From Lingula anatina (taxonomy: Eukaryota; Animalia; Brachiopoda): a DNA stretch of 64,000 nucleotides. Below the pieces are notes generated by a model. It searched no databases and was not told the DNA's origin. It was given only the letters and a program-made list of their open reading frames with translations. The stretch spans positions 628,954 to 692,953 of the forward strand of contig CM120644.1 in NCBI GenBank assembly GCA_051362555.1. Direction: 5' to 3'. The translations under genes and the position numbers were made by a program. Shown in pieces: positions 14,817 to 49,890 of the stretch (position 1 is its first letter; each line of letters opens with the position of its first letter).

Positions 14817-14855
<39 letters not shown>

Positions 14856-16112
14856 TTATATTTGAGGACGAATATGATAGAGCCTGTGTGTGTGTGTGTG
14901 TGTGTGTGTTTGTGTGTGAGAGAGAGAAAGAGGGAGAGAGAGCTTGTGTGTGTGTTAGACTAGCACATTACTGATATCCTGAGGTATAGCAGCCCTCACC
15001 ATTTATTACTAAGAGACTTGTTATTTCCCTCCACCAGGATATATCTCAGTTCCCCAAGCCCCATGTCACTGGTACAGGGCCAAGAGTTGCTGTTCCTCAG
15101 TTACTAAAGATATCCCCTCTTAACATTCCTCAGAATTGAGATGAGCCGTCTTCACCTGGTCTTGGTTTATCTTCATTCTCATCTCTGACTCTGCTCCAAA
15201 AATGGATTTTACTTGGATTGAAAGTGAACTGAACAATGTGATTAACTTCTCCAGTATGCAAGGGTTTATGAAGAACCTCATATGGGCTTTTACAACCTCA
15301 TCTTCCAGCCATTGAGATTGGCTGAGGTAGGTTTGTTTATTTGGCATGCCCTGTATTTAGCAGGGCTGGGGTTTCACTGATACCTCACTTTTACATCTCA
15401 AGTTTTGAAATGTTTTTGTTTACACCTAGTTCTTGTTACATTATCACAGTCACTGTCATCTAACAAAGTGTTATCATTATTTTCAGAGCTGTACTGTGAA
15501 GTCCTGGGGACAGTGAAGTCCTTGGATTGGTACCACAACGGGAACAAGCTCAACCTAGGTCAGGTTTCTTAGTTTATTCCTACAGTTTTCAGTTAAATTT
15601 TATCAAGTAGAAGGTGTTCTATTTGGAAATCAAGCTACAAATCTTATGTGTTTTCATGGAGATGGAGTCTCTGGTGTATAAGTGTGATAGACATTGTGGT
15701 TGAATCTCATCCCAACACAATTTGTTTGGCACACCTAACGCAATGCAACTTCAACATTTATATTCAGTATTCAATATGTCAGATGTGGACAGTGTTGATT
15801 AATACATTTGTAATCCTTCATTTATCAGGTGGAAGGTACGTGTTGATTGCTTTTCCTCATTATCGCAAGGGGCGTTACTTCTCCAAATGGCTGGACTTTC
15901 GTCTGCGGATGTATTTCCCCACAACCGAGGACTCTGGCATCTACACAGTGAGACTACAAGGCCCATCTGGGAAGACACATGAACAGAATATATTTGTGGA
16001 CATTTCAAAGTTCAAGACAGCCAATCAAGTGACAAGTAAAGCCAAGACCTGGTGGAAACCCAAAGTGTCCGCAAAGACATCAACTAATAAAAACTCTGTC
16101 ACAAAGATTTAG
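12205..16112 (+). CDS. 3' coding exons of an unidentified gene with a C-terminal Ig-like (I-set-like) domain; exons 12205-12313, 15487-15558, 15829-16112 (stop)
   Basis: Canonical AG/GT boundaries with matching phases give AISRYLKWYRTDSMLWKCRNAIKRYMDWGKEPMSSL-ELYCEVLGTVKSLDWYHNGNKLNL-GGRYVLI...FRLRMYFPTTEDSGIYTVRLQGPSG. The LxC, WYHNG and DSGIYT motifs are Ig hallmarks. Upstream exons were not identified. Confidence 0.7.
12876..14029. mobile_element. Solo LTR (Gypsy-like), 1154 bp, in an intron
   Basis: TGTA...TACA termini with an exact 4-bp target-site duplication ATAC (12872-12875 and 14030-14033). It is CpG-rich against CpG-poor flanks and carries internal 81-bp and about 84-bp direct repeats. 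Confidence 0.75.
14667..14955. repeat. Compound (TG)n/(GA)n microsatellite
   Basis: Alternating TG and GA runs. Confidence 0.9.
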
Positions 16113-17799
16113 AAATTGTACAGTTAATAGTTACAGTATGAAGATACAGCAGTGGAATGGTCATAGTTATGAAACAGTTATGGTGCTGGACATTTTTAGC
16201 CCATAATCATGATCAGTTGCTTCTTGATTCGTATCAGCCAAAAAGAACCACAATCTAGCATCGAATCATGGCTAATATATATGCTGTTGAATTTCCAACG
16301 TTAACAGCATTTTCTAACATGGCCATCTGTACATATATACGAATTAGTAAAAGTTTGGTACATAGCCTTATCACTGAGCAACTTTGATTGGTCAGTTTCT
16401 GTACCTGGAGCATTTCTGTCTTGTGATTGAACGACAGAGTTGACCATTTTTGAAGATTAGTGCAAATTTTATATTTTTTTGCATTTTTAAGTTCTTGATT
16501 TTCAGTATTTATTTTATGTTTACTTTTTTCAACTTCATGCTTTCTTTTCTTTTGCAAAATTTAATTGGCAAATGAAAAAAAACGCAAACTAGAGGTTGTT
16601 GTTATCAGTAATTGTAAATGAAGCACTTTCTGCTGATCTGACAAGTCCAGGTGTCTTCAGTGCAGGAAATGCTGTTTGTAGTAAACAACCTGTGTGACAG
16701 AAATATATTGTAAATTGTACACAAAATACTGTAAATAGTTTAATCTAAATTAATATTGATGTGAAGCATATATTCACTTTATATATTGTAAAAATAATAA
16801 GAAAAATAATATCACTGATGGAAATTTGTGGATGTTATATTGGGAGTGTGGTTTGATTTGATTTATCTGTAGATAGTTCAACAAGGATGTCACACAAGAA
16901 TATTTTGATAGTTGTGTACTGCAACTTTTAAAACAACTTCTGTTGATTGATACAAAAGTTGGATGTAAATTTGGAGTGTGGCAGGTTTTGGCGCCCAGGG
17001 TCTATATCTGACTTGTTCACAGAGTGATGGGTGTTTTTTAACATGAAGTGTAACATTAAACTTGGAATACATGCATTGTATCAGTTGTTATTTTAAAATG
17101 TGTATATACAATAAGTAATAGCTGACCATGACAACAACTCTTTGTTGATCACCATCTTTTGTTGTACAGTAGAAGCTCAGATTCAAGATATCACATCAGT
17201 CTCTTAAATCTGGGTCTCACATTAAGTAACTCTTTAACTTACCAAAGATAATTTACAACTTGGCATTGATTTATTTCAAAATGTTACATTAATGTAATGT
17301 TCTTTTTAATTTTTACAAGCATGTATCTTGTTTGCGTTACATGATACAAAAGCCTTGGATATATGTACATAGTTAATCATGACCGTTAACCCTTTGTCAC
17401 TGTTCAACATCCCACATATTTACACTTCCTCTCAATGGCTGGCAGTTTTAAACAACACGGATTGAAAGGGTTAATTTGTTCTTACACTTATTACAATAGT
17501 CTGACCTTAAGATCATTTATTACAATAGATTATAATTTATGTTCAAGACTTAAACTTACAAAATAGCCTAACTATTAATTATTCCCCTATACAATTGCAC
17601 TTTCATATGATATGGCATTATGACAATTCAAGGAACTGTCACTGTTCCTGTTACTGGTGGTTAATGTTAATACTTCCCCCACTGCTGTTCCCAGCTGTGT
17701 TATGTTGTCACAGAATAAATCAGTATTACCTAAACTTGACATAGTTTTCATCTTGTTCATAAACAAACATATTTTTGCCTTGTCCTATGTGAAACATCC

Positions 17800-18240
17800 G
17801 AGTTCACAGCTAACACAGTGCATCGATGTCCCAGTTCACAGCTAACGCAATGTGCTGTCTCCCAGTTGACAGCTAACTCAATGTGCTGTCTCCCAGTTCA
17901 CAGCTAATGCAATATGCTGTCTCCCAGTTCACAGCTAACACAATGTGCTGTCTCCCAGTTCACAGCTAATGCAATATGCTGTCTCCCAGTTGACAGCTAA
18001 CGCAATGTGCTGTCTCCCAGTTGACAGCTAATGCAATAAGCTGTCTCCCAGTTCACAGCTAATGCAATGTGCTGTCTCCCAGTTCACAGCTAATGCAATA
18101 AGCTGTCTCCCAGTTCACAGCTAATGCAATAAGCTGTCTCCCAGTTCACAGCTAACACAATGTGCTGTCTCCCAGTTCACAGCTAATGCAATAAGCTGTC
18201 TCCCAGTTCACAGCTAACGCAATGTCCCCTTGTTCATAGC
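17800..18240. repeat. 31-bp tandem repeat (about 14 copies, decaying to about 18430) in the probable VPS50 3' UTR
   Basis: Unit GCTGTCTCCCAGTTCACAGCTAATGCAATAT, period 31, just downstream of the VPS50 stop codon. Confidence 0.9.
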
Positions 18241-18423
18241 AAACACAATAGACAATGCACTCCCACTTCACAGGAACACAATGTGCTGTTCACAGCCAAT
18301 TCAATGCAATTCGCAGTGACACAATGTGTCTTCCCAAGTCACAGCTAATGCAATGTAGTTCACAGCTAACACAACATGCTGTCTCTAAAGTCACAACTAA
18401 CGCAATGCAGTTCACAAAATGTG

Positions 18424-21400
18424 CTATCTCCTGTTGGCAGATTCCTCCACCATTGCCACCAGTCTCTGTCTTCCTCTTTTGTTGATGTGGTCCACACAGT
18501 TGATAAGAGAGATCAGTTGTTTGGGAGAGTATTCCTGAAAAGATAACATTTCAGCAACATTACCTTTTTATTGCACAATATTCAATATAAAAGTAGTTTT
18601 TGAAGAAAAGCACTTACTTTAAGCATAGCAATTTTGGTCACTGTATGAATCACACGTTATGGTAAACGTTAAATTCTGAACCGTCTACTGACCACAAAAA
18701 CTGAACAGATAAACCAGATAAAAGGGCAGTATTTGTCTGTATTTGTCTATATCTTGACCACTGCCCACTCAGTGTCCACTCATTGACCACCGTCCACTCC
18801 CTTACCCTTCTGTCCCTGACCCAGAGCTCTAGCTGTGTCTCTGGCAGGTAATACGCCTTGATGTAAGCGTCCACAAACTCCCGCTCTGGTATTGGTCGGA
18901 TGTTGGTCAACTTCTCCAGCTTCATCAGCAGCTGTTGAAAGTCCAGCTGCATCAGGGCTCGGCCCTCATTGGTACACTTCTTAGCACTGGCATAACTGGA
19001 AACATGATTTCTTGGTTTACTCAATGGTTTTATTCTATTTAATTAAGTATTCATCCTTTTCCCAAGCACTCCTAAATTTAGCAAATTGATTTAAAGACAA
19101 ATATTTAAGTTCTTTAATAACCATTCTGATCAACTGTAACAGTTTATATCAAATGACACGTTAACATGCTTCCTGTCCACACGACCAGAAACTGGAAATG
19201 TGCTATTGTTAACTTGTTATTTCAGCTGTATTTTGTTTGTATTTCATTTTTTTTTCAAATTACTAAATTTGTTTAACAACTAGACAGCAAAGCTGGCAAG
19301 TATACAGTCACCATACAGGAAACAAGGCAGTTTTATATACAGTGTCTGTATTGATTGATTTGATAACAAATTTTACAGATTCAAATTACAATATTATTCT
19401 GGTCAATTGCGTTAACCATCCTTCATAAAACCTAGTGGTTGCAAGATGTCTGTCATGACCAGACTGCCGCACACTTACCCTTCTACTAGCGTCCTATTGG
19501 CAAGTCCAATCACATGCTCCCACATTACCTTGGAAACGGCTTCAGGAAGCGGGACGCGGCGACTGACCCCATTTAACCTGTTACTGAACACTTGAAGTTC
19601 CTGTAAGGAAAGACTTTTCTTAAAACTAGAACACAAACATGTCAGGTATTTATGATTTAATATCACTGAAGACATACAAACAACTACCTCTAACTTGTAC
19701 TGGATAGCTCAGTTGTCTGATATCATTTCCAGATGCCCCTTGACTCTATAGCCAGTCTATAGCTAACCTTACCCTCAGTATGACATCCACATAGTTATTA
19801 TAATTGTATATTAATTCAAGCTTATAGTCAGACTTTATAGCCAGTCTCTATAGCCAAGACACTTAGACAAGACTCTATAGCCAGTCTATAGCTAACCTTA
19901 CCCTCAGTATGACATCCACATAGTTATTATAATTGTATATTAATTCAAGCTTATAGTCAGACTTTATAGCCAGTCTCTATAGCCAAGACACTTAGACAAG
20001 ACTCTATAGCCAGTCTATAGCTAACCTTACCCTCAGTATGACATCCACATAGTTATTATGCTGTGACATGATGTCCTTGATGTCCCACTTAACACTGCTG
20101 ACAGACTGCAGGAGTTGGTCAGTGTTCAGACACCTGCTGGTGACACATTGATAGACAGGCTTACGGAGCTCCTGGGCTGTACTCACAGTCTGAGGGTAAT
20201 AATAAAACATTTCATTATAACAATTAATATAACACACTGGTAGACAGGCTTACGGAGCTCCTGGGCTGTGCTCACAGTCTGAGGGTAATAATAAAACATT
20301 TCATTATAACAATTGATATAACACACTGGTAGACAGGCTTACGGAGCTCCTGGGCTGTACTCACAGTCTGAGGATAATAATAAAACATTTCATTATAACA
20401 ATTAATATAACACACTGGTAGACAGGCTTACAGAGCTCCTGGGCTGTACTCACAGTCTGAGGATAATAATAAAACATTTCATTATAACAATTGATATAAC
20501 ACACTGGTAGACAGGCTTACAGAGCTCCTGGGCTGTACTCACAGTCTGAGGGTAATAATAAAACATTTCATTATAACAATTAATATAACACACTGGAAGA
20601 CAGGCTTATGGAGCTCCTGGGCTATACTCACAGTCTGAGGGTAATAATAAAACATTTCATTATAACAATTGATATAACACACTGGTAGACAGGCTTACGG
20701 AGCTCCTGGGCTATACTCACAGTCTGAGAGAAATGATAAAACATTTCATTATAAGAAATATAGCACTTTGCCTGTGTGCTAACAGCATATCGAAAATGTA
20801 AAAATGTGTACTTCATATTCGTATCATGATGCAATTAATTTAAACTATATTCTATAAATGTTAAAGGCCAAATAAGCTCAAAGCCTCTAGCATAATTTTT
20901 TAAAATTATGAAATCATAATTTTTCTACAAAACTGCATTAAAAAAATCAGCAAAAATCAATGACATAGATAAAATGTGGTACTTGACTTACAAAACTGGA
21001 CAAATATCCTACATTTTTCTGTGGGTAAATCTTATTGGAGAAGTCATAAGTACCCACCTGTGAATAAAACTGCATGAGGAATGCTTTCTTAGTCTGTGGG
21101 ATGGATTCTTCCAGACTGGGTTTCAGGAACTCAAACTGCTCTGCCAGGAATACTCTGGAATACAGGAGAAGGGGGGGGGGGTTAAGACTTGGGAAGTAGA
21201 ATTACAATCAGTTCTTAAATACCCTAACACATACACACACATACACACACACACTGTTATTATAAGAACATATAACACTGGAAATTCATTCTCATCAGTA
21301 CTAGATCTTAAATTTTAAAATATATGAAATAACAAAATCATAAAAAGATCAAATTAATGAGCTCATAATAATTAAGCTGAGCAGAGTAAATATTAAAACA

Positions 21401-21699
21401 ATTCAAGCACAAGATAAACCTACATTCTACAAATAACATTACAGACCACTTTTACAAATAGCAGAAGATAATTCCTACATCAAGCACTTGCCACATAATT
21501 TCCATCACTGTAATACTCACAGAGACTCAGCGGCCACCACTCTCTCTGGCAGACCAAACAGTGAGTCTGGGTTGAGCAAATTGACGACGGGAGAAATGTG
21601 GGGCTGTAGAACTTTGTCCTAGGAGACAAACAAGGTTATGCATTCTATTAACATATGTCAACATATTACATGACAATTAACACAAATATACACAGTGAT

Positions 21700-21741
<42 letters not shown>

Positions 21742-21748
21742 ATTAATT

Positions 21749-21786
<38 letters not shown>

Positions 21787-21790
21787 TTAA

Positions 21791-21827
<37 letters not shown>

Positions 21828-21838
21828 GCACACACACA

Positions 21839-21911
<73 letters not shown>

Positions 21912-24900
21912 GCACACACACATTAAATTTTATACAGATTTCAAAGGTTGCAAGCAGAAATGTAGAGCAGATGTTTTACCCTCCTCTCCTCCATACTATC
22001 CATGCCATTGTCCTCTAATATCAAGTTATCATCTATTCTCTTCAGTGTGGTCCTCAGTTTGTTACTTAGTTCTCTGTCCTGGAAGGAATAATGGAAAAGA
22101 TTCAAGTCTACAAACAAATGTAAAGAAAAAAACTTATCTTTAACAAATAGAAGAGATGAACTTTGAAGTGGAACTTTTTAAAAGAAAATGCTAGTTAAGA
22201 AAAGAAAAGTAGGAGAAAGAAAGAAGAGTATCTTTTGTTTTGTAAACCTACCTCAGCAGCATATTCAGAACCAAAGAAGCTGTACACCTGGAATATGAAA
22301 ATACAAGTGTCAGATACATATTGGAACTGATACCACATACTGCCTACTTGTCCTCTGCACAAGGCTTTAAATAAGGTCTCAGTGTAATACAGTGTTATCA
22401 CAGATTACTTACTGTTTTCCTATTACTTTATCTCCCTAATAATGTACTAGACTAGTCTTAACATTCAAGGTTACACCTGGCACACGCCAGTAGACAGTAC
22501 ACAATGCCTCTACATCCAATAATTAATTTTAAAATGGTCATTATAAAGAGATCACAGTTTTAATATATTCTTCCCTCTAATAGATAAAGACATGTTGTTA
22601 AAAAAAACTGGTTGGGGAACTTACAGTGTACATATAAAAATCAAACAGCTGGGACATACAGAAGATCACATCAAAGGAGATGGGTTTGAGGACGTTCATC
22701 ATCTGCATGTATTTCCCTGGAAATAGAGGGGAGATAGAGAATACCATATTAATATATGTTTTTAAGAACTGCACGATAAAAAACTGATGGCCATAATTAC
22801 AGTTAGCCCAAGTTAAGAGCTAAGTAACTAGATACAACAGATAAAGTGAGTCCAATGTCATGGGTGAACGTTGTAGAAACTGAAAATTCTGTAAATTCTG
22901 ACATTAACAAAACGAACAAAAACAGCGCTGAAAATGCTGAAAACTTTCACCCATGTCAATGTTCACTTTTAAAGACTTTCAGAGTGTGAGCAAACTATAA
23001 CCATTACCCCAGAGTCTCATCACATTAAGTGTAGTATTGGTCACTACTGGAGAGAGCAAACTATAACCATTACCCCCAGAGTCTTATCACATTAAGTGTA
23101 GTATTGGTCACTACTGGAGAGAGCAAACTATAACCATTACCCCAGAGTCTTATCACATTAAGTGTGGTATTGGTTACTACTGGAGAGAGCAAACTATAAC
23201 CATTACCCCACAGTCTTATCACATTAAGTGTAGTATTGGTTACTACTGGAGAGAGCAAACTATAACCATTACCCCAGAGTCTTATCACATTAAGTGTAGT
23301 ATTGGTTACTACTGGAGAGAGCAAACTATAACCATTACCCCACAGTCTTATCACATTAAGTGTAGTATTGGTCACTATTGGTGCCAGTCTGTCTGATCTT
23401 AAACTTCCTCTTCTTATTGAAACCTTGGGCCTAGAATGAAACACTTGAATTTTACCTTTCGTTTATATTTTATATTTTATCTTTTTTTAAAATATACATT
23501 CGTACGTATATAAAGGATATCAGACCTGAAAGCACTTTGTCATAATTATTTTAAACTAACTCTAAAATTATATTTTTTGCAAACACTGTTTATAATATTA
23601 TAATATCAGTAATAACATAAGATTGATAAGGTGTGTCAGGTGTGACAGACAGGTGTGTTCCCAGGTGTTCTATGGAGTATATAACATTCTTTATTATATG
23701 AATCACCTCCTGACAGCAGGCACCTCTCCTGTCTGTTCATCAATGTAATCCTGCTTCAGTTCCTCAGGGATGTCAGAGTCACTGTCACTGTCGTGGTCTG
23801 GGGTACCCTCGTGGAAACCCTCGCTGTCAAACTGGAACAGACAGGAGATGAAGGTCATACACTGGTATTGTACACAGTCATATATCATAGAGCTGTAAAT
23901 ATCATGATTTAGGCACCACAGGTGAGATGAAGATTATTACACAGAGATAGTGTTAGTCTACTAAAATGATAATGTGTCCACCAAACCCATACAAAACATT
24001 TCTAAAAGTGACTCTATGGGTTACTCTACAGGAATTGTATTGGATGTGCTACAAGCCATATTATAGAAAACCTATGTCCTATAGAACCCTTCCATGAGAG
24101 AGAAAATATACAAATAAATATTAAAGAAATCATACAATTAATCAGACAATAATTCACCGAAAAAGCCTTTACTTCTTTCTTTTTATTAAGTTTTTTTCAT
24201 TTCATTTTACCCCATTTGTTGCTAGGACGTCCTCCTTTTCTTCCTCCTCTGCCTGAAGATCAAAGGGACTTCCCTGATCTCGAAACTTCTGGAACACGCT
24301 GGTCTTCACACTCCCTTGCGACAGTGAGCTCGCATTGCTGTGTGTGCGCCGTAGTCTGTGGCGCATAAACTTGTACTCCTGTTAATTGTGGAAAAGTTAT
24401 AAGAACACTTGAATATTATCTAAAAACATGCTATTATTTATCAAATATGTTTAACTTACTAAATTTAAATACAACTGCCGAGGTATTCCTAATAGAATAA
24501 TTCCAAAATTATGTATTGTATTCAATAAGGCATAATATAGGAAGCAGATACATGGGAAGAAAAAAAAAAAAACCTAAACTAAAGTATTACAGCCTGAACA
24601 CTGTTTACTTCAGCACCTTACACTAAGTAACACATTGGCATCACAGATGTCATACAATGAGCAGAACATTAAGTCATTTCTGTACAGAATGACAACAACA
24701 TAGGACTGCTGCATGGATCCAGGGAAGACAGATAGACAGCTTACCTGGAGTTGGAGTATACTAAAGTTGGACTTCACAGGACACAGTTCCCAGCCTTCAT
24801 TTTCTAGGAACATCCTCAGTTCATCTAGTCTGGACCTGGAGTAGAGGAGAAAGTGTGTTAGATGTGATTGTCTTATATGGCAGTGTTGTAGATATGACAG

Positions 24901-27900
24901 TGTTGTAGATGTGACAGTGTGTTGGATGTGACAGTGTGTTGGATGTGACAGTGTGTTGGATGTGACAGTGTGTTGGATGTGACAGTGTGTTGGATGTGAC
25001 AGTGTGTTAGATGTGACAGCGTGTTAGATGTGACAGTGTGTTGGATGTGACAGCTGTTGAGTTGCCAGGCTGTGTGAAGCTCTTGTATTTTTTTGTATTT
25101 TTTTACTGAGTTTGAATAAGTTTGTGGACTAAAACTTATTAAAGAAAACATTACCAACTGCTGCCACCATTGTTTCCTTACCTATGATAATTTCTAAAAT
25201 AGTTGACACTTTGCTGCCTGAGAGAATCTTGTAATCCTTCAGATTTACTTCCACAGAATTCTTCACCAACCTGAATTAGCCTGTGAAAAGAGAATACAAG
25301 AACAAATAACCCTTGGTGAGGGAAAAGATAAATCCACTTGATGTTTTGCTTTACTAAAGGACTATTTTTAAACTTCCATTAGCATTGACTTAAATAAACT
25401 TGTTAAGCTGTGAAGCATTTGTGTGTCTCATCATAGCCAGCAAACAATTGCAAATTGTTTACATTAAAGTGCTGATGTGACTGAGACTAATAACAGTTGC
25501 ACAGATTCTGATGAGAAGGGACCTGGCTTCACAGGATGCACAGTTATCTAGAATACAGATAAAATGCCATGTATTGAAATACAGGTGAACAACAAGAAAA
25601 TCCTTTTTTTTTTAGTAAACTCAGTGTCGACTGTATATTTGGTTTCTGAATTTGTGCGCAATAAACCAAAACCAATGTTTAACAGATATCAAGTGCTACT
25701 GTGTAAAATAAACATTTTAACTCAGTGCCACTGATATCTCACCTGTTGACAATGTCCAGCACCTGGATGAACTCATCGAATTTAAAAGTGGACATATCCA
25801 GACTGAGGACATAGGTCTTCACCTTCTGCTGGACGTCTTGCCAGATACGCTCCAGTCCGTGCTCCAGCTTCTGCTTCACATATCTCCTGTTGAACACGGC
25901 CTCCACACTGCTGCCATTGGAGTCTGCAATATCAGAGACTGGTTGAGATTGTGTTAGGTGTGACAGTGGAGATTTTACATTGTGTTAGGTCTGAAAGTGG
26001 AGATTTTACATTGTGTTAGGTCTGAAAGTGGAGATTTTACATTGTGTTAGGTGTGACAGTGGAGATTTTACATTGTGTTAGGTCTGAAAGTGGAGATTTT
26101 ACATTGTGTTAGGTGTGACAGTGGAGATTTTACATTGTGTTAGGTGTGACAGTGGAGATTTTAGATTGTATAGTATCTATCACAGTAAGAGAAATGCTAC
26201 AAATTCATCCAAAAATTGTAGCTCTGTTCATAATAACATCTATCCTATGTTTCCTTTTAAAATATTTAAAATTGGTGAAATTTATACTTTTAAAGTTTAA
26301 GCAATTGAAATTCTTCAGAAATTTAATGTTAAAAGTGTTATGTTCATGCACCACAAAGAGAATTGATACATTGATAGCAACCTGAATCTTGAGCCTCTTG
26401 TTCCTGTCTCTCGTGCCACTCGATGGTTTGATAATAACTCTTCATCACTTCCCACAATGCCTTGCACAGGTCCACAAGACATGGGTAGAACGTTTCTATA
26501 CTGATGTGCTGGAACAGACAGACAGAAGGGCTCAAAACAAATATACTTAATCTTTTCTGTAACATTTATTTCTTTGGTCCTGTAAGTTTTTGATTATTAT
26601 TATTTTATAAGGTGTTTAAAAAAATAGAGATGAAAAAACAGGTTTGAAAATATAGCACTGATTTCCCAAGATAGGGGAAAAAATAAAAGGGATTTTCTGT
26701 AACAAGCAGGGTAAGAACAGAGATGCTGCCCTTCTTATCTTCCTTTAGTTAGAATTTCTCGTTTATTTAGATCAATTTCAGGCAGTTTCAAAATAACAGA
26801 AACAAAATTCATATCTATGAAACAACACACAAACAGATCTAAATTCATGAAATGTCAAATGGGTGAAAAAAATAATGAAATAACCAATAATAAACAAACC
26901 AATCAAAATACAAACAGATTCAAATTGCAGCTTGCTGAATCATTTTCTTATCTCTTTTCCAAAAACGTATCATTCTAGAGGGGTATGTGTTAAAGCCCTT
27001 TGATATATAAGATATCTATCTCTGTACCAATGGCAGTATGATGTCCCAGGGTTTGAAGCAGTGGAATGCATTTTTGCAGATGGTTCATTAATTGTAGTCC
27101 TAATTTTCTGTTATAAAAGCACCAATTATACAAAGATTTTTTCTCCTCTTTCAACTTTTTTGACAACCAAACTAAATAAAAAACTTTCACACAATTATGC
27201 AAAAATGTTGATCAAACGTAAATATTTTTAATCACCTCAACAAAATTGCCACACAATGTTAATATTGCTGAGATTAGAATGTCTGAGGTGTGTCATCTTC
27301 TGGATGTGTTAGGTGAGACATCTCTCTGAATGTGTTTGGTGAGACATCTCACTGAGTGTGTTAGTTGAGACATCTCACTGAGTGTGTTAGGTGAGACATC
27401 TCCCTGAGTGTGTTAGGTGAGACATCTCCCTGAGTGTGTTAGTTGAGACATCTCACTGAGTGTGTTAGGTGAGACATCTCCCTGAGTGTGATAGTTGAGA
27501 CATCTCACTGAGTGTGTAAGGTGAGACATCTCAGTGTGTTAGGTGAGACATCTCACTGAATGTGTTAGGTGAGACAGCTCACTGAATGTGTTAGGTGAGA
27601 CAAATTCCCCAAGCCACATCTAACACAACCACACAGGGCTGCATGGATATCAGCAGTTAGTTGAATGAAAATATTCCTACATACTCACCACATTGCTAAA
27701 CAGGCGCTATCATAAAATCCAATACAAATATGTTAATCTACCTGTTACAGTGCCATTAAATTTACAGATTCAGAATTCAAAGAAAGAAGTTTATCAGCTA
27801 AGATAAAAGAAAGGTGACACAGAAACAGCAGTTGGATTATTCAAGAAATTTTTGAGACATAGAACTGTTAGAATTTAGATGTAACAGGTTTAAACTCTAA

Positions 27901-30900
27901 AATCATACATCAATTTTCTCATAGTAAACAAGACGCAGGTTCTCATAGTGCCATGTTTAAGCAAAAGTCTAAACAATAAAAAACTCTACTCATCCAGAGA
28001 CAAAAAGTCCCCAACTCGGCTCTATAACCTATGAAGGAGCTAGCATGCACTAGTCTTTCACATATAATGTCAGTATACTTACCTTACACAGGTCAGAGTA
28101 CTGTCTCTTCTGGAAATTGCTGTCTGCCGTCCCCGAGGTCAGCTCTACGTAACCCAGTACAATGGTGAAGGCAGTGTTATGGATGGCACTAGTGAAATGC
28201 ATGTGTAACTGGTCCATGGCAGTCTAGAGATAACAAGGTATAGATATAACTGTGATAATATATAACCCAGTACAATGGTGAAGGCAGTGTTATGGATGGC
28301 ACTAGTGAAATGCATGTGTAACTGGTCCATGGCAGTCTAGAGATAACAAGGTATAGATATAACTGTGATAATATATAACCCAGTACAATGGTGAAGGCAG
28401 TGTTATGGATGGCACTAGTGAAATGCATGTGTAACTGGTCCATGGCAGTCTAGAGAGAACAAGGTATAGATATAACTGTGATAATATATAACCCAGTACA
28501 ATGGTGAAGGCAGTGTTATGGATGGCACTAGTGAAATGCATGTGTAACTGGTCCATGGCAGTCTAGAGAGAACAAGGTATAGATATAACTGTGATAATAT
28601 ATAACCCAGTACAATGGTGAAGGCAGTGTTATGGATGGCACTAGTGAAATGCATGTGTAACTGGTCCATGACAGTCTGGAGAGAACAAGGTATAGATATA
28701 ACTGTGATAATATATAACCCAGTACAATGGTGAAGGCAGTGTTATGGATGGCACTAGTGAAATGCATGTGTAGCTGGTCCATGGCAGTCTAGAGAGAACA
28801 AGGTGTTATATGATGTTACCATGTCAACAGCACTGAGTAATATGAGGCACTTTCACATGCGGCAATATACTTTAGCGATGTAAAGTCTACATTTGGTGTA
28901 TTTTGAGATGTTGTTGGATGTAATTACACTAGAAGGGGTCTACTCTCTTTCAGATATAGTCATTGAATAATATATGATCCTTTTCACAAGAGCAATATAC
29001 TGTAATCATATACAGTTAAGATGCGATGTATATTAAGAAGTTGTAACCTGTCATTATACTATGGGATGTATACTCTTTTTCACAAATTGTCCAGAACTTT
29101 GCTGGCTGGTCTAACATGCATCATCAAGCCATGCACAGTGTCTTCATGTAACTGACTGTCTTGTGTCAAAGTTGTGACATGTCATAGGACAGTGTCAGTT
29201 CTACCTACCTGTGTCTTCCCCAGAAGTCTGTATGCATGTTGAACTTTCTCATAGTGTCTGGTGTCAAAGTTATGACATGTCATAGGACAATGTCAGCTCT
29301 ACCTACCTGTGTCTTCCCCAGAAGTCTGTATGCATGTTGAACTTTCTCATAGTGTCTGGTGTCAAAGTTATGACATGTCATAGGACAATGTCAGCTCTAC
29401 CTACCTGTGTCTTCCCCAGAAGTCTGTATGCATGTTGAACTTTCTCATAGTGTCTGGTGTCAAAGTTATGACATGTCATAGGACAGTGTCATCTCTACCT
29501 ACCTGTGTCTTCCCCAGAAGTCTGTATGCATGCTGAACTTTCTCATAGTGTCTTGTGTCAAAGTTCTGACATGTCATAGGACAGTGTCAGCTCTACCTAC
29601 CTGTGTCTTCCCCAGAAGTCTGTATGCATGTTGAACTTTCTCATAGTGTCTGGTGTCAAAGTTATGACATGTCATAGGACAGTGTCAGCTCTACCTACCT
29701 GTGTCTTCCCCAGAAGTCTGTATGCATGCTGAACTTTCTCATAGTGTCTGGTGTCAAAGTTATGACATGTCATAGGACAGTGTCAGCTCTACCTACCTGT
29801 GTCTTCCCCAGAAGTCTGTATGCATGTTGAACTTTCTCATAGTGTCTTGTATCAAAGTTCTGACATGTCTTGGACAGGGCCACGTCAAGCTGTTCCTCTA
29901 TCATCTCCAGAGTGTCGTGGAGCTTGGAGCTTAACTCACTGAAAATACAAACACAGCAATGAAGTTTGGTCTCTCTTTCTCTCTCTCTCTTTCTGTATAT
30001 ATGTGTGTGTGTATGTCCATCTCCTAGACTATCACCAGAACAGACAAACATGTGCTGAGTTGATGTACATTGTAAATCAGACTGTAATCATTGGTGTATG
30101 AAATGTGTTAGGTGAGATAAACTGTCTCACCTAACACAGCTGATGTGGTGTATGAAATGTGTTAGGTGTGATAAACTGTCTCACCTAACACAGCTGATGT
30201 GGAGTATGAAATGTGTTAGATGTGATATGCTGTCTCACCTAACACAGTTGATGTGGAGTATGAAATGTGTTAGATGTTATAAGCTGTCTCACCTAACACA
30301 GCTGATGTGGAGTTTGAAATGTGTTAGATGTGATAAGCTGTCTCAACTAACACAGCTGATGTGGAGTATGAAATGTGTTAGATGTGATAAGCTGTCTCAA
30401 CTAACACAGCTGATGTGGAGTATGAAATGTGTTAGATGTGATAAGCTGTCTCAACTAACACAGCTGATGTGAAGTATGAAATGTGTTAGATGTTATAAGC
30501 TGTCTCAACTAACAAAGTTGATGTGGAGTATGAAATGTGTTAGATGTTATAAGCTGTCTCAACTAACACAGCTGATGTGGAGTATGAAATGTGTTATATG
30601 TTATAAGCTGTCTCATCTAACAAAGTTGATGTGGAGTATGAAATGTGTTAGGTGTGATAAGCTCTCTCAACTAACACAGCTGATGTGGTGCATAAAATGT
30701 GTTAGGTGTGATAAGCTGTCTCAACTAACACAGCTGATGTGGAGTATGAAATGTGTTAAGTGTGATAAGCTGTCTCAACTAACACAGCTGATGTGGTGCA
30801 TAAAATGTGTTAGGTGTGATAAGCGGTGTCAACTAACACAGGTGATGTGGAGTATGAAATGTGTTAGGTGTGATAAGCTGTCTCAACTAACACAGCTGAT

Positions 30901-31960
30901 GTGGTGCATAAAATGTGTTAGGTGTGATAAGCTGTCTCAACTAACACAGCTGATGTGGAGTATGAAATTTGTTAAGTGTGATAAGCTGTCTCAACTAACA
31001 CAGCTGATGTGGTGCATAAAATTTGTTAGGTGTGATAAGCTGTCTCAACTAACACAGCTGATGTGGTGCATAAAATGTGTTAGGTGTGATAAGCTGTCTC
31101 AACTAACACAGCTGATGTGGAGTTTGAAATGTGTTAGATGTGATAAGCTGTCTCAACTAACACAGCTGATGTGGAGTATGAAATGTGTTAGATGTTATAA
31201 GCTGTCTCATCTAACAAAGTTGATGTGGAGTATGAAATGTGTTAGGTGTGATAAGCTGTCTCAACTAACACAGCTGATGTGGTGCATAAAATGTGTTAGG
31301 TGTGATAAGCTGTCTCAACTAACACAGCTGATGTGGAGTATGAAATGTGTTAAGTGTGATAAGCTGTCTCAACTAACACAGCTGATGTGGTGCATAAAAT
31401 GTGTTAGGTGTGATAAGCGGTGTCAACTAACACAGGTGATGTGGAGTATGAAATGTGTTAGGTGTGATAAGCTGTCTCAACTAACACAGCTGATGTGGTG
31501 CATAAAATGTGTTAGGTGTGATAAGCAGTGTTAACTTACACAGCTGATGTGATGTATGAAATGTGTTAGGTGTGATAAGCTGTCTCACCTAATGCAACTG
31601 TAATGTTTAAATGTACTGGCAGCTTTCTGGCACTCCAGACACAGCTGTATTGCACCAGGGTAGTCCTCCTCCTGAAAAATCACCAAATAAATCTATATAT
31701 GAGTAGCTTGGATATATTGACCTAATAGTAATAAAATGGCAATACATTCCTTAATTAAAACTGATTTGAGAAATAAAACTTATGCAGTCAAGCTTTATAA
31801 AATGGAAGAAACTAATTTACTATAGATGTATGTATGTATGTAGGTATCCGTCATCATTCGACTTCAAATTAATATGATAAATAAGCCCTCATACCCACCT
31901 CCATCATTTCTCTGAGCCTTATGTCAGTTCGTTGCTGAAAAATAGGAACTTTTAATAATA

Positions 31961-31991
<31 letters not shown>

Positions 31992-34900
31992 TGAATGAAT
32001 ACATTTCTCTTTCTTGTTTCAAATTTCATTCATAAATTTATATAACATTTTACACAGCAATTTAACATGGAGTAAATACATTTAACATGGAGTTAATACA
32101 TAAACAGAAATTCTCCATATTACTAGGAAATGTCATACTTACCAATGTCTTTATCATCCTGAGAGATTTCAGTAAAGCTATGAGTTGTTGTCTTTTCCTG
32201 AAGTTCTTCAGTAGACCTAAACTGGCAGTGGTGAAGACACTCTTAGCTAGAGTCAGCTGACTGGAAGACAGAAAGAACATTTGTGTTAGGTGTGCCACAG
32301 AGTATGACTGGCAGTGGTGAAGACACTCTTAGCTAGAGTCAGCTGACTGGAAGACAGAAAGAACAATTGTGTTAGGTGTGCCACAGTATATGACTGGCAG
32401 TGGTGAAGACACTCTTAGCTAGAGTCAGCTGACTGGAAGACAGAAAGAACAATTGTGTTAGGTGTGCCACAGAGTGTGACTGGCAGTGGTGAAGACACTC
32501 TTAGCCAGAGTCAGCTGACTGGAAGACAGAAAGAACAATTGTGTTAGGTGTGCCACAGAGTGTGACTGGCAGTGGTGAAGACACTCTTAGCCAGAGTCAG
32601 CTGACTGGAAGACAGAAAGAACAATTGTGTTAGGTGCACCAGTCTATGGTTTATCATTGTGTTAGGTGTGCCACAGTATATGACTGGCAGTGGTGAAGAC
32701 AGCCAGAGTCAGCTGACTGGAAGACAAGAAAACCAAGACTTATCTGTAGATATAACATTGTGTCAGGTGGAGCAGTGACTGATTTATAATATTGTATTAG
32801 GTGTGACAGTGTGTAAGATGCATTCTGTAGATATAACATTGTGTCAGGTGTGACAAGTGTGTTAGATGCATTCTGTAGATATAACATTGTGTCAGGTGTG
32901 ACAAGTGTGTTAGATGCATTCTGTAGATATAACATTGTGTCAGGTATGACAAGTGTGTTAGATGCATTCTGTAGATATAACATTGTGTCAGGTGGAGCAG
33001 TGACTGATTTATAACATTGCATTAGATGTGACAGTGTGTTATTTGCATTCAGTATAACAGAATGTAGTGACAGTGTTTAATGTGACAGTGTGTTAACTGC
33101 AGTAGTATGTTAGGTGTAACACTGTGCCAGAGTGTTTGATTTATCATTGTGTTAGGTGTGCCAGAGTGTATGTCTTTTAAAAACTTGAGTTAAGTGTGTC
33201 AGTGTGTTAGGTGTGACAGTGTGTTAGATGTGACAGTGTGTTAGATATGACATTGTAATACAACAGCCCCACCTTCTCCCGTCTGCACATATTGCACTGG
33301 CGTGTTGCAGTGTGGCCTGGAGCTCCATCACCCTCTGAAGTTCTGCCGCATACGCTGGGTGGTTCTCCAGCACAAGTTCTGACACTTTCTTTGATACCTG
33401 GAATAATAAGGTCAGAGGTAATGACACAGTTTACAGGTCAAAGGTCATAGGTAATGACACAGTTTACATGTCATCAGTGACTTAAATGCTAAGAGAACTA
33501 TATATGAAGTATGTGCAGATAAATGTCTTGCAAAAAATATCTTAATTACTAAACAAAAGGAATGGTTTTCATTTGAAAACCAAGTATGAATGTGTTCTCT
33601 ACACTGTTATACTTACAACTTGTAGCTGTTTTCTCAATTTTGTCCTGTCATCATCTATCTCCTGAAGGTTTAACTTCTCTGGAAGTTTCTGGAAATCATA
33701 TACACACAATTTTTAAATTCATAATGCATAATTTTTTTGATTTTTTGGAATTTCGGCAAATCTTTAAAAAATGCATGCAAACCCTTATAAACAACAAAAA
33801 ATAAGAGCATCAATGAATATGGATATGAATAAGTTGGCACAAACCAATTTCTAAAGGAAAAGTCACTAAAAAAATGATAAAATGTTTTGTTAAACATTCC
33901 CTGTCTATTATTCTCCCCTCCTTAATCTGTAAGACTGGGTTCCTGAACCTTGATCGATCTAACAGGATCAGTCTATCTCTTACCGGTTTCTTGTGAAATT
34001 GCTTTCAGCTTAAGTGGCTTAGATGTCTAGCATGTCTACTAAAGTTGCTAAATGATAATTACCCCCTAGCAGCATCAGCAGGCGTGCCAGACATGTAAGT
34101 CAATAAAGCTGATTGCAATTTAGGGAGAATCCCCTTGGAGATAGATTGATCCACAGTTAGTACGAAAGGGTATATATTATAATATGAATACTTACAGCCA
34201 GTTTAAACTCACTGGAATCATACATCACATTAACCCTGGTATATGTTATAATATGAATACTTACAGCTAGTTCAAACTCACTGGAATCATACATCACATT
34301 AACCCTGGTATATGTTATAATATGAATACTTACAGCTAGTTCAAACTCACTAGAATCATACATCACATTAATCCTGGTATATGTTATAATATGAATACTT
34401 ACAGCTAGTTCAAACTCACTGGAATCATACATCACATTAACCCTGGTATATGTTATAATATGAATACTTACAGCTAGTTCAAACTCACTGGAATCATACA
34501 TCACATTAACCCTGGTATATGTTATAATATGAATACTTACAGCTAGTTCAAACTCACTGGAATCATACATCACATTAACCCTGGTATATGTTATAATATG
34601 AATACTTACAGCTAGTTCAAACTCACTGGGATCAAACTCCTCCCCTCTGTAGTAGTCAGCCTCTATGGACTCCAGGAGATCTCTGTCAGCATGAGGGTCA
34701 TTGGGCATGTCTATGTGGTGGATATGTTCCTACAATACAGGACATAATGTGGTAGGTGAGACAGCTGAGCATTTGATCTCAACCTTACAAATTGTAGTAA
34801 GTGAGACAGCTGAGCATTTATCTCAACCTCACACATTGTGGTAGGTGAGACAGCTGAGCATTGGATCAACCTTACAAATTGTGGTAGGTGAGACAGCTGA

Positions 34901-36280
34901 GCATTAGCTCAACCTTACAAATTGTGGTAGGTGAGACAAATGAGAAGGTACTGTAAAATAGTTACTTTCTTTCACTTACACAATGCAAACATCTGTTGTT
35001 ATTATCAATGATAAAACATTGTATAAGTGAGAAAACATGTTGGTAGTACAACTGTACTGATTATAGCTAAGCATCCTGCCAATAACACTGTTTATGCTTT
35101 ACCAATATATAAGTTTAGTTTGAAATCCCACCCAAGTATCGCAATTGATATCTCTTTTGTGACCAGCCTAGGTTCAAATATCATCAGGATTCAACATTAA
35201 TATATCCTACATGTAAACTGACTGACTTTGCACTAACTGTACACACACTATACATGATTTATTACTGTATGCAACAAGTTACACCTTGTAGGCACACAGG
35301 GCACTTAGGCTTAAATAAAGCATTGGTACATCAGTTATTGTCTCTTATTATAACCCATCCGTTTACCTTGTACAAGGTATTGGTGCATCAGTTTTTTTAT
35401 TTCTAAAATTCTAATCCAGGCATTTACCTTGAACAAGGTATTGGTACATCAGTTTTTTACTTCTATAATTCTAACCCAGCTGTTTACCTTAAACAAGGCC
35501 ACTGCCGGCTGACCCACCAATTCATCTGCAGCAAAGTCATGATCAGGAGATCTGGGGTCCTGGAAGAAATGGGGAGATTATGATTATTATTATTATTATT
35601 ATTATAAAATGACAAACCCTGGTGGAGGGGCAATTCTACAGAAATCCTGGCGAGTAAAATTCACGTTTATTTATAAAACTTATATATTCCAGTAAAGTTG
35701 GCTGGTAAACCCCACCCCATTCCACTTATAAACTCTTATGCAGAGCTCACCATGTCCTCTGGGAGTGGAGATCATTTCTAGACTGAATATTTCCAAAAAT
35801 CTCAGAAAGCCAGCTCATTAAGGGCCAGAAACTGTCAGCCCTTAGTCTGATTTTTACACTTTTTTCTGCCAACATGTACTATGCCTCAGACATTTTCCTG
35901 TGGTGGCTGAAGACTGAAGCTTGCCTTCTAACTTACAGAGTTTAGGCACAAAATTACCACCGAGTGTATTGAATAAATTGATACACAAATCCACCACATA
36001 TGGCACAGGTGATCAACGACATCAAGTACGAACGACGTTTGCACTTAAAGTATATTACTCTTAAACAGTTAGTTAAAGCAAAATAATCAGTCTGTTAATA
36101 ATGAAGTATCATTAATTACACCCATTACAATTTACATTGGGAGTGACACACTGACAATACTTTACTGGCAATTATTGTTTTAGTTCCCGTAGAATAAGTG
36201 TAATTTGATTTTAAAAAGATTATCTAAAAGCACCTCACCTGCTTTCCAATGAGCGACTGCAATTTCTTCCGAAACGCCAT
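18424..36280 (-). CDS. VPS50: VPS50 / syndetin (CCDC132), EARP complex subunit; 26 coding exons, 945 aa
   Basis: Exons in transcript order: 36239-36280, 35488-35559, 34610-34729, 33617-33688, 33273-33397, 32143-32260, 31899-31934, 31589-31671, 29797-29938, 28083-28223, 26382-26508, 25743-25923, 25182-25280, 24745-24835, 24211-24378, 23707-23831, 23339-23430, 22625-22716, 22252-22287, 21980-22078, 21521-21618, 21058-21154, 20031-20189, 19479-19600, 18806-18995, 18424-18534. All introns are GT-AG and phases are consistent (total 2838 nt). Recognisable motifs: [76 protein letters not shown]. Confidence 0.95.
19742..20058 (-). repeat. 129-bp tandem repeat containing the VPS50 exon 23 donor (3 donor copies)
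   Basis: AGG|GTAAGG donor at 19771, 19900 and 20029; each unit carries about 28 nt of the exon end. Confidence 0.9.
20143..20755 (-). repeat. 89-bp tandem repeat containing the VPS50 exon 23 acceptor (7 copies)
   Basis: CTCAG|ACTGTGAG acceptors at 20190, 20279, 20368, 20457, 20546, 20635 and 20724. Confidence 0.95.
21700..21925. repeat. Compound (CT)n/(CA)n microsatellite
   Basis: Four CT-CA blocks separated by ATTAA(T/A). Confidence 0.9.
22987..23380 (-). repeat. 66-bp tandem repeat containing the VPS50 exon 17 donor (6 copies)
   Basis: TGGG|GTAATG donors at 23337, 23271, 23205, 23139, 23072 and 23006. The ORF track repeats [22 protein letters not shown]. Confidence 0.95.
24853..25055. 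repeat. 17-bp minisatellite (GATGTGACAGTGTGTT(G/A)) next to the exon 14 acceptor
   Basis: About 10 copies; the first GTTAG is at 24857-24861. Confidence 0.85.
25948..26163. repeat. 31-bp minisatellite (ATTGTGTTAGGTGTGACAGTGGAGATTTTAC) next to the exon 12 acceptor
   Basis: 7 copies, period 31. Confidence 0.9.
27305..27602. repeat. 26-bp minisatellite (TGTGTTAGGTGAGACATCTCACTGAG)
   Basis: About 12 copies, period 26, mid-intron 10 of VPS50. Confidence 0.9.
28150..28805 (-). repeat. 113-bp tandem repeat containing the VPS50 exon 10 acceptor (6 copies)
   Basis: Acceptors at 28224, 28337, 28450, 28563, 28676 and 28789. Each is followed by about 74 nt of exon ([25 protein letters not shown]). Confidence 0.95.
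29156..29868 (-). repeat. 98-bp tandem repeat containing the VPS50 exon 9 donor (7 copies)
   Basis: Units start at 29183, 29281, 29379, 29477, 29575, 29673 and 29771. Each is about 72 nt of exon end plus CAG|GTAGGT and 26 nt of intron. Confidence 0.95.
30095..31592. repeat. 54-bp hairpin satellite (28 units) whose last unit supplies the VPS50 exon 8 donor
   Basis: The unit contains TGTGTTAGGTGAGA-7nt-TCTCACCTAACACA. The period is exactly 54 (30126 to 31584 = 27x54), with a higher-order repeat at 594 bp. Confidence 0.95.
32221..32730 (-). repeat. 86-bp tandem repeat containing the VPS50 exon 6 acceptor (5 copies plus a degenerate one)
   Basis: Units at 32221, 32307, 32393, 32479, 32565 and a partial one near 32683. 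Each has CACCTAACACA, the pyrimidine tract, CCAG and 40 nt of exon. Confidence 0.95.
32745..33255. repeat. 48-bp and 17-bp TGTGT(T/C)AG(G/A)TGTGACA minisatellites filling VPS50 intron 5
   Basis: Unit TGTAGATATAACATTGTGTCAGGTGTGACAAGTGTGTTAGATGCATTC, followed by degenerate 17-mers. Confidence 0.8.
34170..34630 (-). repeat. 69-bp tandem repeat containing the VPS50 exon 3 donor (7 donor copies)
   Basis: GCT|GTAAGT at 34608, 34539, 34470, 34401, 34332, 34263 and 34194. The frame stays open through all copies (ORF 34157-34708). Confidence 0.95.
34745..34940. repeat. About 43-bp minisatellite (TTGTGGTAGGTGAGACAGCTGAGCATT..CAACCTTACAAA) next to the exon 3 acceptor
   Basis: 4-5 copies beginning about 15 bp from the acceptor. 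Confidence 0.85.
35320..35498 (-). repeat. Degenerate repeat of about 60 bp containing the VPS50 exon 2 donor (3 copies)
   Basis: CCTTGT(T/A)(T/C)AAG|GTAAA at 35486, 35426 and 35365, with shared ATTGGT.CATCAGTT spacers. Confidence 0.75.
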
Positions 36281-36359
36281 GTTAATTCAAATCTCACAAT
36301 ATTTTATAAAAAATCGTATAATTTACTCCTCCCCTGGGTAGCCATGTTGGTTTCCTGTA

Positions 36360-36369
36360 GTCACGTGAC
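36360..36369. promoter_or_regulatory. Palindromic E-box GTCACGTGAC (CLEAR / MiT-TFE / USF type) in the VPS50-SPR bidirectional promoter
   Basis: Exact 10-bp palindrome 80 bp upstream of the VPS50 ATG, within the 763-bp head-to-head gap. Confidence 0.6.
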
Positions 36370-37043
36370 AAACATTGAGCAACTCCACACCGATATAACA
36401 TAACATGTTGCTCATGCTGCACAAGTTGCTGCACATGTAGAAGTTTTGTAAGCCTAGATATAGATAAGATAATATATTTACAATATCTTAAGTGTGTAGG
36501 ATTCGTGTAAAACTTTACTTTATGCACTGGAGGTCATTTGAATAGTATGGCGTATCTTGGCCACTAGCTGTCAACGTTATATATTGACATTTGCCGCAGA
36601 AGACGTGTTTTGTGTTTACAGTGTTGTTATTGTTAATAAGAATCGACGGTTACCAAGTCATAGAAGCGAACGAAGAGAAGGGCATTTCAGGCAAGAAAGG
36701 TTGTTTTTCATAATCTGCATTTAACTATTTAACTGACTGGGATCATTCATGCTAGTTTCCACTTAATAAATGGAAGATGTCCTTGTAATTTGCGTGTTAA
36801 AGTAGAGGGTGGATATCTTTACTGTTTAACTGAAGACGAGTATCCAAATGTTATATGGTTATTGTTAATATTAAAAGAACTGACCATATAAGGTACAATA
36901 TGCCTAACAGTATATTTCCAATTTTTATAATAATTTTTAAATATACTAATATAACTATTTTGTTATTCCCGTGTTGCTTGTGCTGCCGCCAAGCAGAAAT
37001 AAAAATCACTAATTAAACAGTCCCTTATTGTAGCTATCCCAGG

Positions 37044-39046
<2,003 letters not shown>

Positions 39047-39072
39047 AAGATTTAGCTTAGTTTTATATGCTA

Positions 39073-39285
39073 GTATAAACTGCAGTAGGGAGTGTGTTAG
39101 GTGAGAATAAACTGCAGTAGGTGTGAACTGTGTATTGTGGTTAATGTGAATTAGGCAAGAATATTGTGTTAGGTGTGACTATTGTGTTAGGTGAGAATAA
39201 ACTGCTGGTGTGAACTAGGTGTAAACTGTGAACTGTGTATTGTGGTAGGTGTGAATTAGGTGAGAACATTGTGTTAGGTGAGACT
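39073..39285. repeat. Degenerate TGTGTTAGGTG(A/T)GA repeat cluster in the SPR 3' UTR
   Basis: Multiple GTGTTAGGTGAGAATAAACTGC and TGAACTGTGTATTGTGGT copies right after the stop codon. Confidence 0.75.

Positions 39286-49883: not shown

Positions 49884-49890
<7 letters not shown>

What the first reader, a model, noticed from the sequence alone, without database searches (positions are those of the whole stretch)
24853..34940. Two-faced motif TGTGTTAGGTG(A/T)GA: branch point on one strand, 5' splice site on the other, seeding many minisatellites
Seen: one core underlies arrays of 17, 31, 26, 54, 86, 48 and about 43 bp period. It also occurs at about 8398, 39090-39280, 52465 and 57688. On the VPS50 sense strand it reads UCACCUAACACA, containing the branch consensus CUAAC. 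The first array copy puts the putative branch A 23 nt (exon 14), 31 nt (exon 12) and 26 nt (exon 6) upstream of the exon, and a CUCAC variant sits 28 nt before exon 3. The opposite strand of the GAGA variant reads AG|GTGAGA, a strong donor. Established: metazoan branch points lie about 18-40 nt upstream of the 3' splice site, and SF1/QKI bind ACUAAC-like motifs. Inference: branch points are amplified just like donors and acceptors, or a mobile repeat core has been co-opted as the branch point, with orientation biased to avoid cryptic donors.
Basis: partly seen in the sequence, partly recalled or inferred. Interest (0 to 1): 0.75.

Follow-up and report, generated by a model that had tools for sequence, protein, structure and literature searches.

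The report
Lingula repeat parked at branch points
A 17-letter DNA repeat that is very abundant in a lamp-shell (Lingula) genome sits 23-31 letters before the end of 4 of 26 introns of one gene, where it likely serves as the splicing branch point, and read the other way it is the predicted start signal of another intron, so this repeat likely doubles as raw material for splice signals.

Summary
Observation confirmed. The window is Lingula-like (98% to Lingula syndetin). The motif has 91 matches against 0.08 expected. It is the core of a 17-bp unit that is high-copy in the genome: DNA contig depth is about 250-340 times background. In a 27-exon VPS50 model, 4 of 26 acceptors carry it with the aligned A at -23, -26, -31 and -23 (that last copy has C there); the other 22 differ by 6 or more letters (P about 0.001-0.006, post hoc). 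A weak fifth copy lies at -24 in the opposite-strand neighbour gene. New: the GT face is the predicted donor of intron 8. The 54-bp array is a palindromic donor 'mirage' in which 23 of 27 extra donors have lost GT. Stranded RNA from other loci favours the CA face, but few loci dominate. Mirage arrays were noted earlier on other DNA of this genome; this motif was not. One gene, no genome-wide test.

The parts
24853..25053 (-).
   Evidence: TRF; acceptor by RNA joint; distance; DNA depth 10937-26222 against median 77
25948..26169 (-).
   Evidence: (joint 25978/26165)
27305..27602 (-). 26-bp array, begins 89 nt after the donor of the 18-nt exon, 801 nt from the acceptor; not a branch-point array
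27689..27706 (-). 18-nt in-frame exon 11 of VPS50
   Evidence: RNA joints 26508/27689 in 3 of 3 RNA runs, 2-4 reads each; open frame
30092..31600 (.). 54-bp array of 28 units, each a near-palindrome of the GT face and the CA face; first unit holds the exon 8 end and donor; 23 of 27 further donor copies lost GT, 4 distal ones keep it
31583..31596 (-). GT face of the motif (2 mismatches) forming the exon 8 / intron 8 donor, exon ends at 31589
   Evidence: open frame and homologue alignment, register; not covered by an RNA joint
32221..32636 (-). 86-bp acceptor mirage (intron end + 40 nt of exon 6), one motif copy per unit, A 26 nt before each AG
   Evidence: little RNA depth over the extra copies (0.2/0/0 in bin 32386-32647)
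32658..33257 (-). 48-bp array and degenerate 17-bp tract in the 5' half of intron 5, starting 23 nt after the donor
   Evidence: DNA depth 22230 against median 87
34748..34938 (-). 43-bp array before exon 3; family A position (-23) is C in all 4 copies, CUCAC A at -28
23632..23648 (-). single copy 62 nt after the donor of exon 17
15452..15472 (+). degenerate CA-face copy (2-nt gap), CUAAC A 24 nt before an inferred acceptor (15487) of the plus-strand neighbour gene
   Evidence: score 22, above all 894 null windows; exon inferred from a 154-codon spliced frame, no RNA laid
17797..18404 (-). 31-bp variant array downstream of the VPS50 stop codon (inferred 3'UTR), GT face on the sense strand
39093..39283 (+). 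six copies in the 3'UTR of the sepiapterin-reductase-like gene, GT face on the sense strand
   Evidence: plus-strand RNA depth through 39450
8389..8450 (+). degenerate 17-bp array, GT face on plus; region likely intron of the plus-strand gene (CpG-poor, T over A)
12781..12820 (+). degenerate GT-face copy inside inferred intron 12314-15486 of the plus-strand gene (counter-example to CA-sense bias)
   Evidence: score 26-30
52464..52477 (+). single exact copy, no gene assigned
57688..57701 (-). single exact copy; its CA face has an AG 24 nt downstream on plus, but no exon is shown there
18424..36280 (-). VPS50/syndetin gene, 27 coding exons, 951 residues
   Evidence: Pfam Syndetin_C; homologues; frame; 7 introns by RNA joints

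Best explanation
The motif is the core of a high-copy 17-bp Lingula repeat whose copies sit at branch-point distance in 4 of 26 VPS50 introns, where their CUAAC (or CUCAC) likely serves as the branch point, and whose opposite face is the predicted donor of intron 8. Shown: family membership, high copy number, positions, local length variation. Inferred mechanism: short copies spread through gene bodies by DNA-level copying. Near an exon edge a copy likely settles, or is kept, only where its face fits the local splice signal: CA face at -23 to -31, GT face at a donor. Short matches to an existing branch site or donor may guide the copying. The genome's general tendency to duplicate exon edges head-to-tail ('mirages') then amplifies each seed with its own neighbours, which gives the unrelated periods 26-86. 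The copies are likely tolerated stand-ins for ordinary weak signals, not a required or regulated element, since 22 of 26 introns splice without them.
For: Family: 16 loci align over about 17 letters and share no flank. High copy: DNA depth 254x and 339x the median on the 17-bp tracts, but background depth on the 31-, 26-, 86- and 43-bp arrays. Position: 4 of 26 acceptors at 0-1 mismatch, the rest 6 or more. Shifting blocks within their introns gives mean 1.0, P(4 or more) 0.006; uniform seeds give P 0.0005-0.002; with a looser gapped search 5 of about 15 clusters, P 0.0005. The seed is there without the array: one copy per unit in the 86-, 43- and 31-bp arrays, and a likely one-unit allele at -31. 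The three intact copies are the best U2-complement matches of all 26 introns (6 of 8 pairs; others 5 or fewer) and lie in the -18 to -35 range (PMC5378181). The unused AG 15 nt after the -31 A falls in the 12-18 nt protected zone (PMC4358997). A fifth copy lies at -24 in an opposite-strand gene. 7 of 9 non-family arrays in VPS50 introns span an exon edge.
Against: No lariat read was seen, so branching at the motif is not shown. The test is post hoc on one gene. In intron 2 the family's A is a C. Four other introns also have an AG 13-15 nt from the acceptor, so the protected-zone argument is weak. The fifth copy is near chance level (about 2 clusters per 19.5 kb at that score) and its exon has no RNA support. 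Four of 8 VPS50 seeds are near donors, not acceptors. No mobile carrier, ends or target-site duplication were identified, so how the copies move is unknown. The intron 8 donor is not covered by an RNA joint.
Confidence: 0.55

Rival explanations
1. Edge effect only. The family is an ordinary dispersed minisatellite. It spreads locally in direct orientation and, like all arrays here, gathers near exon edges. The pyrimidine tract stops it about 20 nt short of the AG, so 'branch distance' is a by-product and the CUAAC is incidental.
For: All 8 VPS50 seeds reach to within about 90 nt of an exon edge, half at donors. 12 of 16 loci are GT-on-plus whatever the gene strand. 7 of 9 unrelated arrays are edge-anchored. 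Most introns have weak branch sites and splice.
Against: Single-copy seeds, not only array ends, sit at -26, -31 and -24. Once the copy fills the -18 to -40 zone it holds the best candidate A in 4 of 4 cases. The -24 copy in the neighbour gene is on the other genomic strand.
Confidence: 0.25
2. The 14-17 letter core is a selected RNA element (binding site for SF1/QKI-type or CA-binding proteins, or a pairing partner of AG|GUGAGA donors) kept near exon edges to tune splicing; the arrays raise its dose.
For: CA-face excess in five stranded RNA libraries (for example 100/11.5, 29.4/0.97, 27.4/8.3), against the sense-strand G over C skew of family-free introns (+0.07). A predicted hairpin covers the intron 8 donor (-11.8 kcal/mol, no shuffle control). 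The 26-bp array lies just after a microexon.
Against: Copy numbers differ between individuals (186- and 525-base skips in DNA contigs). The canonical ACUAAC is nearly absent from the sense strand. 14-17 fixed letters is long for such proteins (own knowledge). The RNA excess is dominated by a few loci (118 and 92 reads in two joint types); 5 against 2 distinct types among listed rows.
Confidence: 0.12
3. The core is a DNA-level hotspot (site of a sequence-specific DNA-binding or recombination protein, or a hairpin-forming transposon end) that triggers tandem duplication, like classic minisatellite cores; splicing is not involved.
For: Arrays of seven unrelated periods share the core. The 17-mer is half of a palindrome seen whole in the 54-bp unit. 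14 of 16 clusters lie in the CpG-poor gene-body part of the window (P 0.025).
Against: Nine equally good arrays in the same gene lack the core. A DNA site gives no reason for a -23 to -31 position.
Confidence: 0.08

Closest known systems
Amphioxus 'mirage' minisatellites (Adh3, globins BflGb6/BflGb9; PMC3087553, abstract and section 16 read)
   Same: Tandem copies of exon-intron boundaries with spare splice signals, length-variable, splicing undisturbed. The 86-bp and 54-bp arrays are of this kind.
   Different: In the section read, mirages are locus-specific and no shared core across loci is described. Five of the seven arrays here do not include an exon edge.
Human F7 IVS7 37-bp minisatellite (PMC1557585, abstract only)
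   Same: First unit spans the donor; further donor copies stay silent and the most upstream is used, as predicted for intron 8.
   Different: There the pseudo-donors are identical; here 23 of 27 lost GT, and each unit carries an inverted copy.
Fish (AC)m-(GT)n introns (PMC4691745, abstract and outline)
   Same: A CA/GT-rich simple repeat placed at intron boundaries in many genes and tied to splicing.
   Different: There complementary repeats stand at opposite intron ends and pair. Here both ends carry the same face (intron 5), the unit is 17 bp, and the CA face is near the 3' end.
Transposon-derived minisatellite families (Alu, B1, MITE; review PMC9659126, passages)
   Same: One dispersed source sequence seeds many arrays of different period.
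   Different: No carrier element was identified here; shared sequence stops at about 17 letters.

Membership tests
Mirage minisatellite | Tandem unit spans an exon-intron boundary | tested here: met
   Met for the 86-bp (acceptor 32260) and 54-bp (donor 31589) arrays only; not for the 17-, 26-, 31-, 43- and 48-bp arrays
Mirage minisatellite | Normal splicing uses the authentic site | tested here: inconclusive
   Depth over the extra 86-bp copies is 0.2/0/0, but the joints of exons 1-8 were not among the 15 of 65 rows shown
Mirage minisatellite | Length polymorphism | tested here: met
   DNA contigs skip 525 bases in intron 5 and 186 in intron 12; assembly collapse is not excluded
U2-type branch point | yUnAy with A 18-35 nt before the 3' splice site | tested here: met
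   CUAAC at -23, -26, -31; CUCAC at -28 (range from PMC5378181)
U2-type branch point | Lariat forms at that A | tested here: inconclusive
   No donor-to-branch joint among listed rows; junction depth was only 1-15 reads per run
5' splice site | GT face used as donor | tested here: inconclusive
   Intron 8: required by the open frame and homologue alignment, no RNA joint laid. The same -2 to +6 letters form the RNA-confirmed donor of intron 13, which is not a family copy
QKI/SF1 response element | ACUAAY on the sense strand (consensus recalled, not from a call) | tested here: not met
   0 in 6 of 7 family introns, 3 in intron 11
(AC)m-(GT)n bridged intron | Complementary repeats at opposite intron ends | tested here: not met
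   Introns 2, 5, 12, 14, 17 have no GT-sense copy; intron 8 pairs within each unit
MITE or other mobile element | Defined ends, target-site duplication, shared flanks | tested here: inconclusive
   No shared flank beyond about 17 letters in 16 loci; no genome held to look for a full-length carrier
Dispersed high-copy repeat | Many unlinked genomic copies | tested here: met
   Contig depth 254x and 339x background in two DNA runs, with many unrelated flanks; summed depth is not a copy number

The most novel reading that the evidence does not exclude
A single 17-bp repeat family has taken over the branch points (and some donors) of roughly a tenth or more of Lingula's introns genome-wide, homing in on look-alike splice signals: a selfish repeat that hides by becoming the splice signal of existing introns.
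Probability: 0.25. Interest if true: 0.7.

Novelty: new variant of a known kind. Interest (0 to 1): 0.42.

Why it matters
Repeat-derived splice signals are usually discussed for new exons or new introns (own knowledge). Here a tiny repeat appears to replace core signals of ordinary introns in a conserved housekeeping gene. If the position peak holds genome-wide, it would give thousands of natural, polymorphic branch-point replacements for asking how branch points turn over and why tandem arrays gather at exon edges. If it does not, this is one more dispersed minisatellite in a mirage-rich genome.

Tried and rejected
No genome is held, so the genome-wide count was not possible. Two exact-pattern scans of metagenome contigs found 0 loci. 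The run search listed no RNA holder; raw RNA runs of the same species label were laid instead. No lariat-type joint appeared among listed rows; depth was too low for this to count either way. The lays covered 23400-28140 and 31600-39450 only, so the 54-bp array, the intron 8 donor joint and the neighbour gene have no read data. The open frame through the 54-bp array has no protein relatives (0 of 1093 candidates) and is taken as a by-product. Convergent origin from the branch consensus was rejected: seven further letters matching within one mismatch has probability about 0.001 per site (hand estimate). Introner-type origin is not favoured: the exon breaks fit homologue alignments and the four introns share nothing else; intron positions in other species were not checked. 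The two other high-copy elements show about 1:1 RNA strand ratios, but they are inverted-repeat elements and so a poor control. One loose end (X3, 24999) reads like a pyrimidine tract plus AG about 30 nt after the motif at another locus; it is a single low-agreement row and was not counted. Look-ups of earlier notes by sequence, by words and near this place found nothing on this motif.
Full report
Setting. The window is animal DNA (GC 37%). A syndetin exon is 98% identical to Lingula anatina syndetin-like and 86% to the next species, so I treat it as Lingula. VPS50 lies on the minus strand. My model has 27 coding exons and an open frame of 951 residues, built from alignment to homologues. Seven introns are shown by RNA joints. 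A sepiapterin-reductase-like gene follows on plus, and an unnamed plus-strand gene precedes. No genome is held.

The observation. The 14-letter motif has 91 matches at up to one mismatch against 0.08 expected. All seven periods are recovered. At up to two mismatches there are 120 matches in 16 clusters, with about 2 expected. Sixteen representative loci align over about 17 letters and share no flank. The consensus equals the unit of the 17-bp array.

It is a genome-wide repeat. Summed DNA contig depth is 26,222 on the 17-bp array (run X3, median bin 77) and 22,230 on the 17-bp remnant in intron 5 (run X1, median 87), about 339 and 254 times background. The 31-, 26-, 86- and 43-bp arrays stay at background. 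Contigs and RNA reads from other loci carry the motif in many unrelated flanks. Summed depth is not a copy number, but it shows many other loci. So the 17-mer is the dispersed parent and the longer arrays are local products. They vary in length: one contig skips 186 = 6 x 31 bases, another 525; assembly collapse cannot be excluded.

Position at branch distance. Four of 26 acceptors hold a copy at 0-1 mismatch, with the aligned A at -23, -26, -31 and -23; the other 22 differ by six or more letters. In intron 2 that position is C, leaving CUCAC at -28. Moving each block at random within its intron gives a mean of 1.0 hits and P(4 or more) = 0.006; uniform placement of 7-10 seeds gives P = 0.0005-0.002. 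These tests were made after seeing the pattern. The three intact copies are the best matches to the U2 complement of all 26 introns (6 of 8 pairs; reference partly recalled), and they lie in the -18 to -35 range (PMC5378181, passages). An unused AG 15 nt after the -31 A lies in the 12-18 nt protected zone (PMC4358997, passages), but four other introns have equally close AGs. A gapped search finds a fifth, weak copy at -24 of an inferred acceptor in the plus-strand neighbour, 1 of 6 non-VPS50 acceptors. It scores above all 894 null windows, yet that score arises about twice per 19.5 kb by chance. Counting all of about 15 intronic clusters at that threshold, 5 at branch distance has P = 0.0005. 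Branching itself was not shown: no lariat joint is listed and depth was low.

The other face. It appears to be an actual one. Exon 8 ends at 31589, and its end plus donor match the motif at 12 of 14 letters. The 54-bp array starts there. Each of its 28 units is a GT face followed by a CA face, a near-palindrome whose arm is the 17-mer. Of 27 intronic donor copies, 23 have lost GT and the 4 most distant keep it. That loss may be one or two changes amplified, so it is not 23 events. The donor is required by frame and homology but was not covered by reads. The exonic half encodes conserved residues, so part of the match likely predates the repeat; this is the one hint that copies may be drawn to look-alike sites.

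Orientation. All seven single-face seeds in VPS50 introns are CA-sense (P = 0.016). Adding the neighbour gene gives 9 against 3 (P = 0.15; two of the three lie in a region only inferred to be intron). Both 3'UTR clusters are GT-sense, and 12 of 16 loci are simply GT-on-plus (P = 0.08). Stranded RNA from other loci favours the CA face in five of five libraries (100/11.5, 29.4/0.97 and 27.4/8.3, of which VPS50 exon 5 adds roughly 7, 0.5 and 2; smaller counts). A few transcripts dominate; listed joint types are 5 against 2, with 50 rows not shown. The bias is plausible, not established.

Mechanism. Best reading (0.55): a dispersed 17-bp repeat spreads in gene bodies (14 of 16 clusters in the CpG-poor part). 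Near exon edges it settles or survives where its face fits the splice signal, and it is then amplified by the exon-edge duplication typical of this genome (7 of 9 non-family arrays in VPS50 introns span an exon edge). Rivals: pure edge effect (0.25), selected RNA element (0.12), DNA hotspot core (0.08).

Known relatives and novelty. Exon-edge arrays are amphioxus 'mirages' (PMC3087553, abstract and section 16), already noted by this scan on other Lingula DNA. Silent donor copies match human F7 (PMC1557585, abstract). Boundary repeats tied to splicing are known in fish (PMC4691745, abstract and outline), but the paired-ends feature fails here. Arrays seeded by one dispersed source are known from transposons (PMC9659126, passages). 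I found no description of this motif or of a minisatellite family at branch points in six searches (listings only). The main text of the Lingula genome paper does not describe it (PMC4595640, passages); its supplements, which may list repeat families, were not read, and the library lacks most subscription papers. Verdict: real, a new variant of known kinds, interest 0.42, pending a genome-wide count and lariat mapping.

Noticed in passing
window 27689-27706 (-): 18-nt in-frame microexon in VPS50, spliced in all three RNA runs laid (2-4 reads each); 10 of 11 matched homologue models lack an insert there, while an Argonauta isoform (P0033) has 12 residues at the same place.
   Followed up: partly
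window 19742-35498: Seven further splice-junction mirage arrays without the motif (periods 129, 89, 66, 113, 98, 69, 60), and a 33-bp duplication covering the likely branch zone of intron 4.
   Followed up: partly
window 33944-34171 and 37938-38022: Two high-copy inverted-repeat (MITE-like) elements in introns; DNA depth 66,436 and 51,382.
   Followed up: no
window 49890-51270: Tc1-like transposon remnant with a DDE_3 domain, ends near 49890 and 51270, next to a TA run.
   Followed up: no
window 12205-16110 (+): Unnamed plus-strand gene, 154-codon spliced frame over three exons, no Pfam hit for the last exon's frame; likely has further 5' exons in 1-12 kb.
   Followed up: partly
window 36280-36560: VPS50 and the sepiapterin-reductase-like gene are head to head with transcribed starts only a few hundred bases apart.
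   Followed up: no
window 40000-62000: CpG observed/expected rises to 0.6-1.0 (0.41 in one bin) against mostly 0.07-0.35 over the genes; minisatellites are much rarer here.
   Followed up: partly
window 42959-43110 and 55775-55930; 53690-54400 and 62600-63350: Interspersed repeats present twice in the window, the second pair in inverted orientation (seen by eye and in identical ORF text).
   Followed up: no
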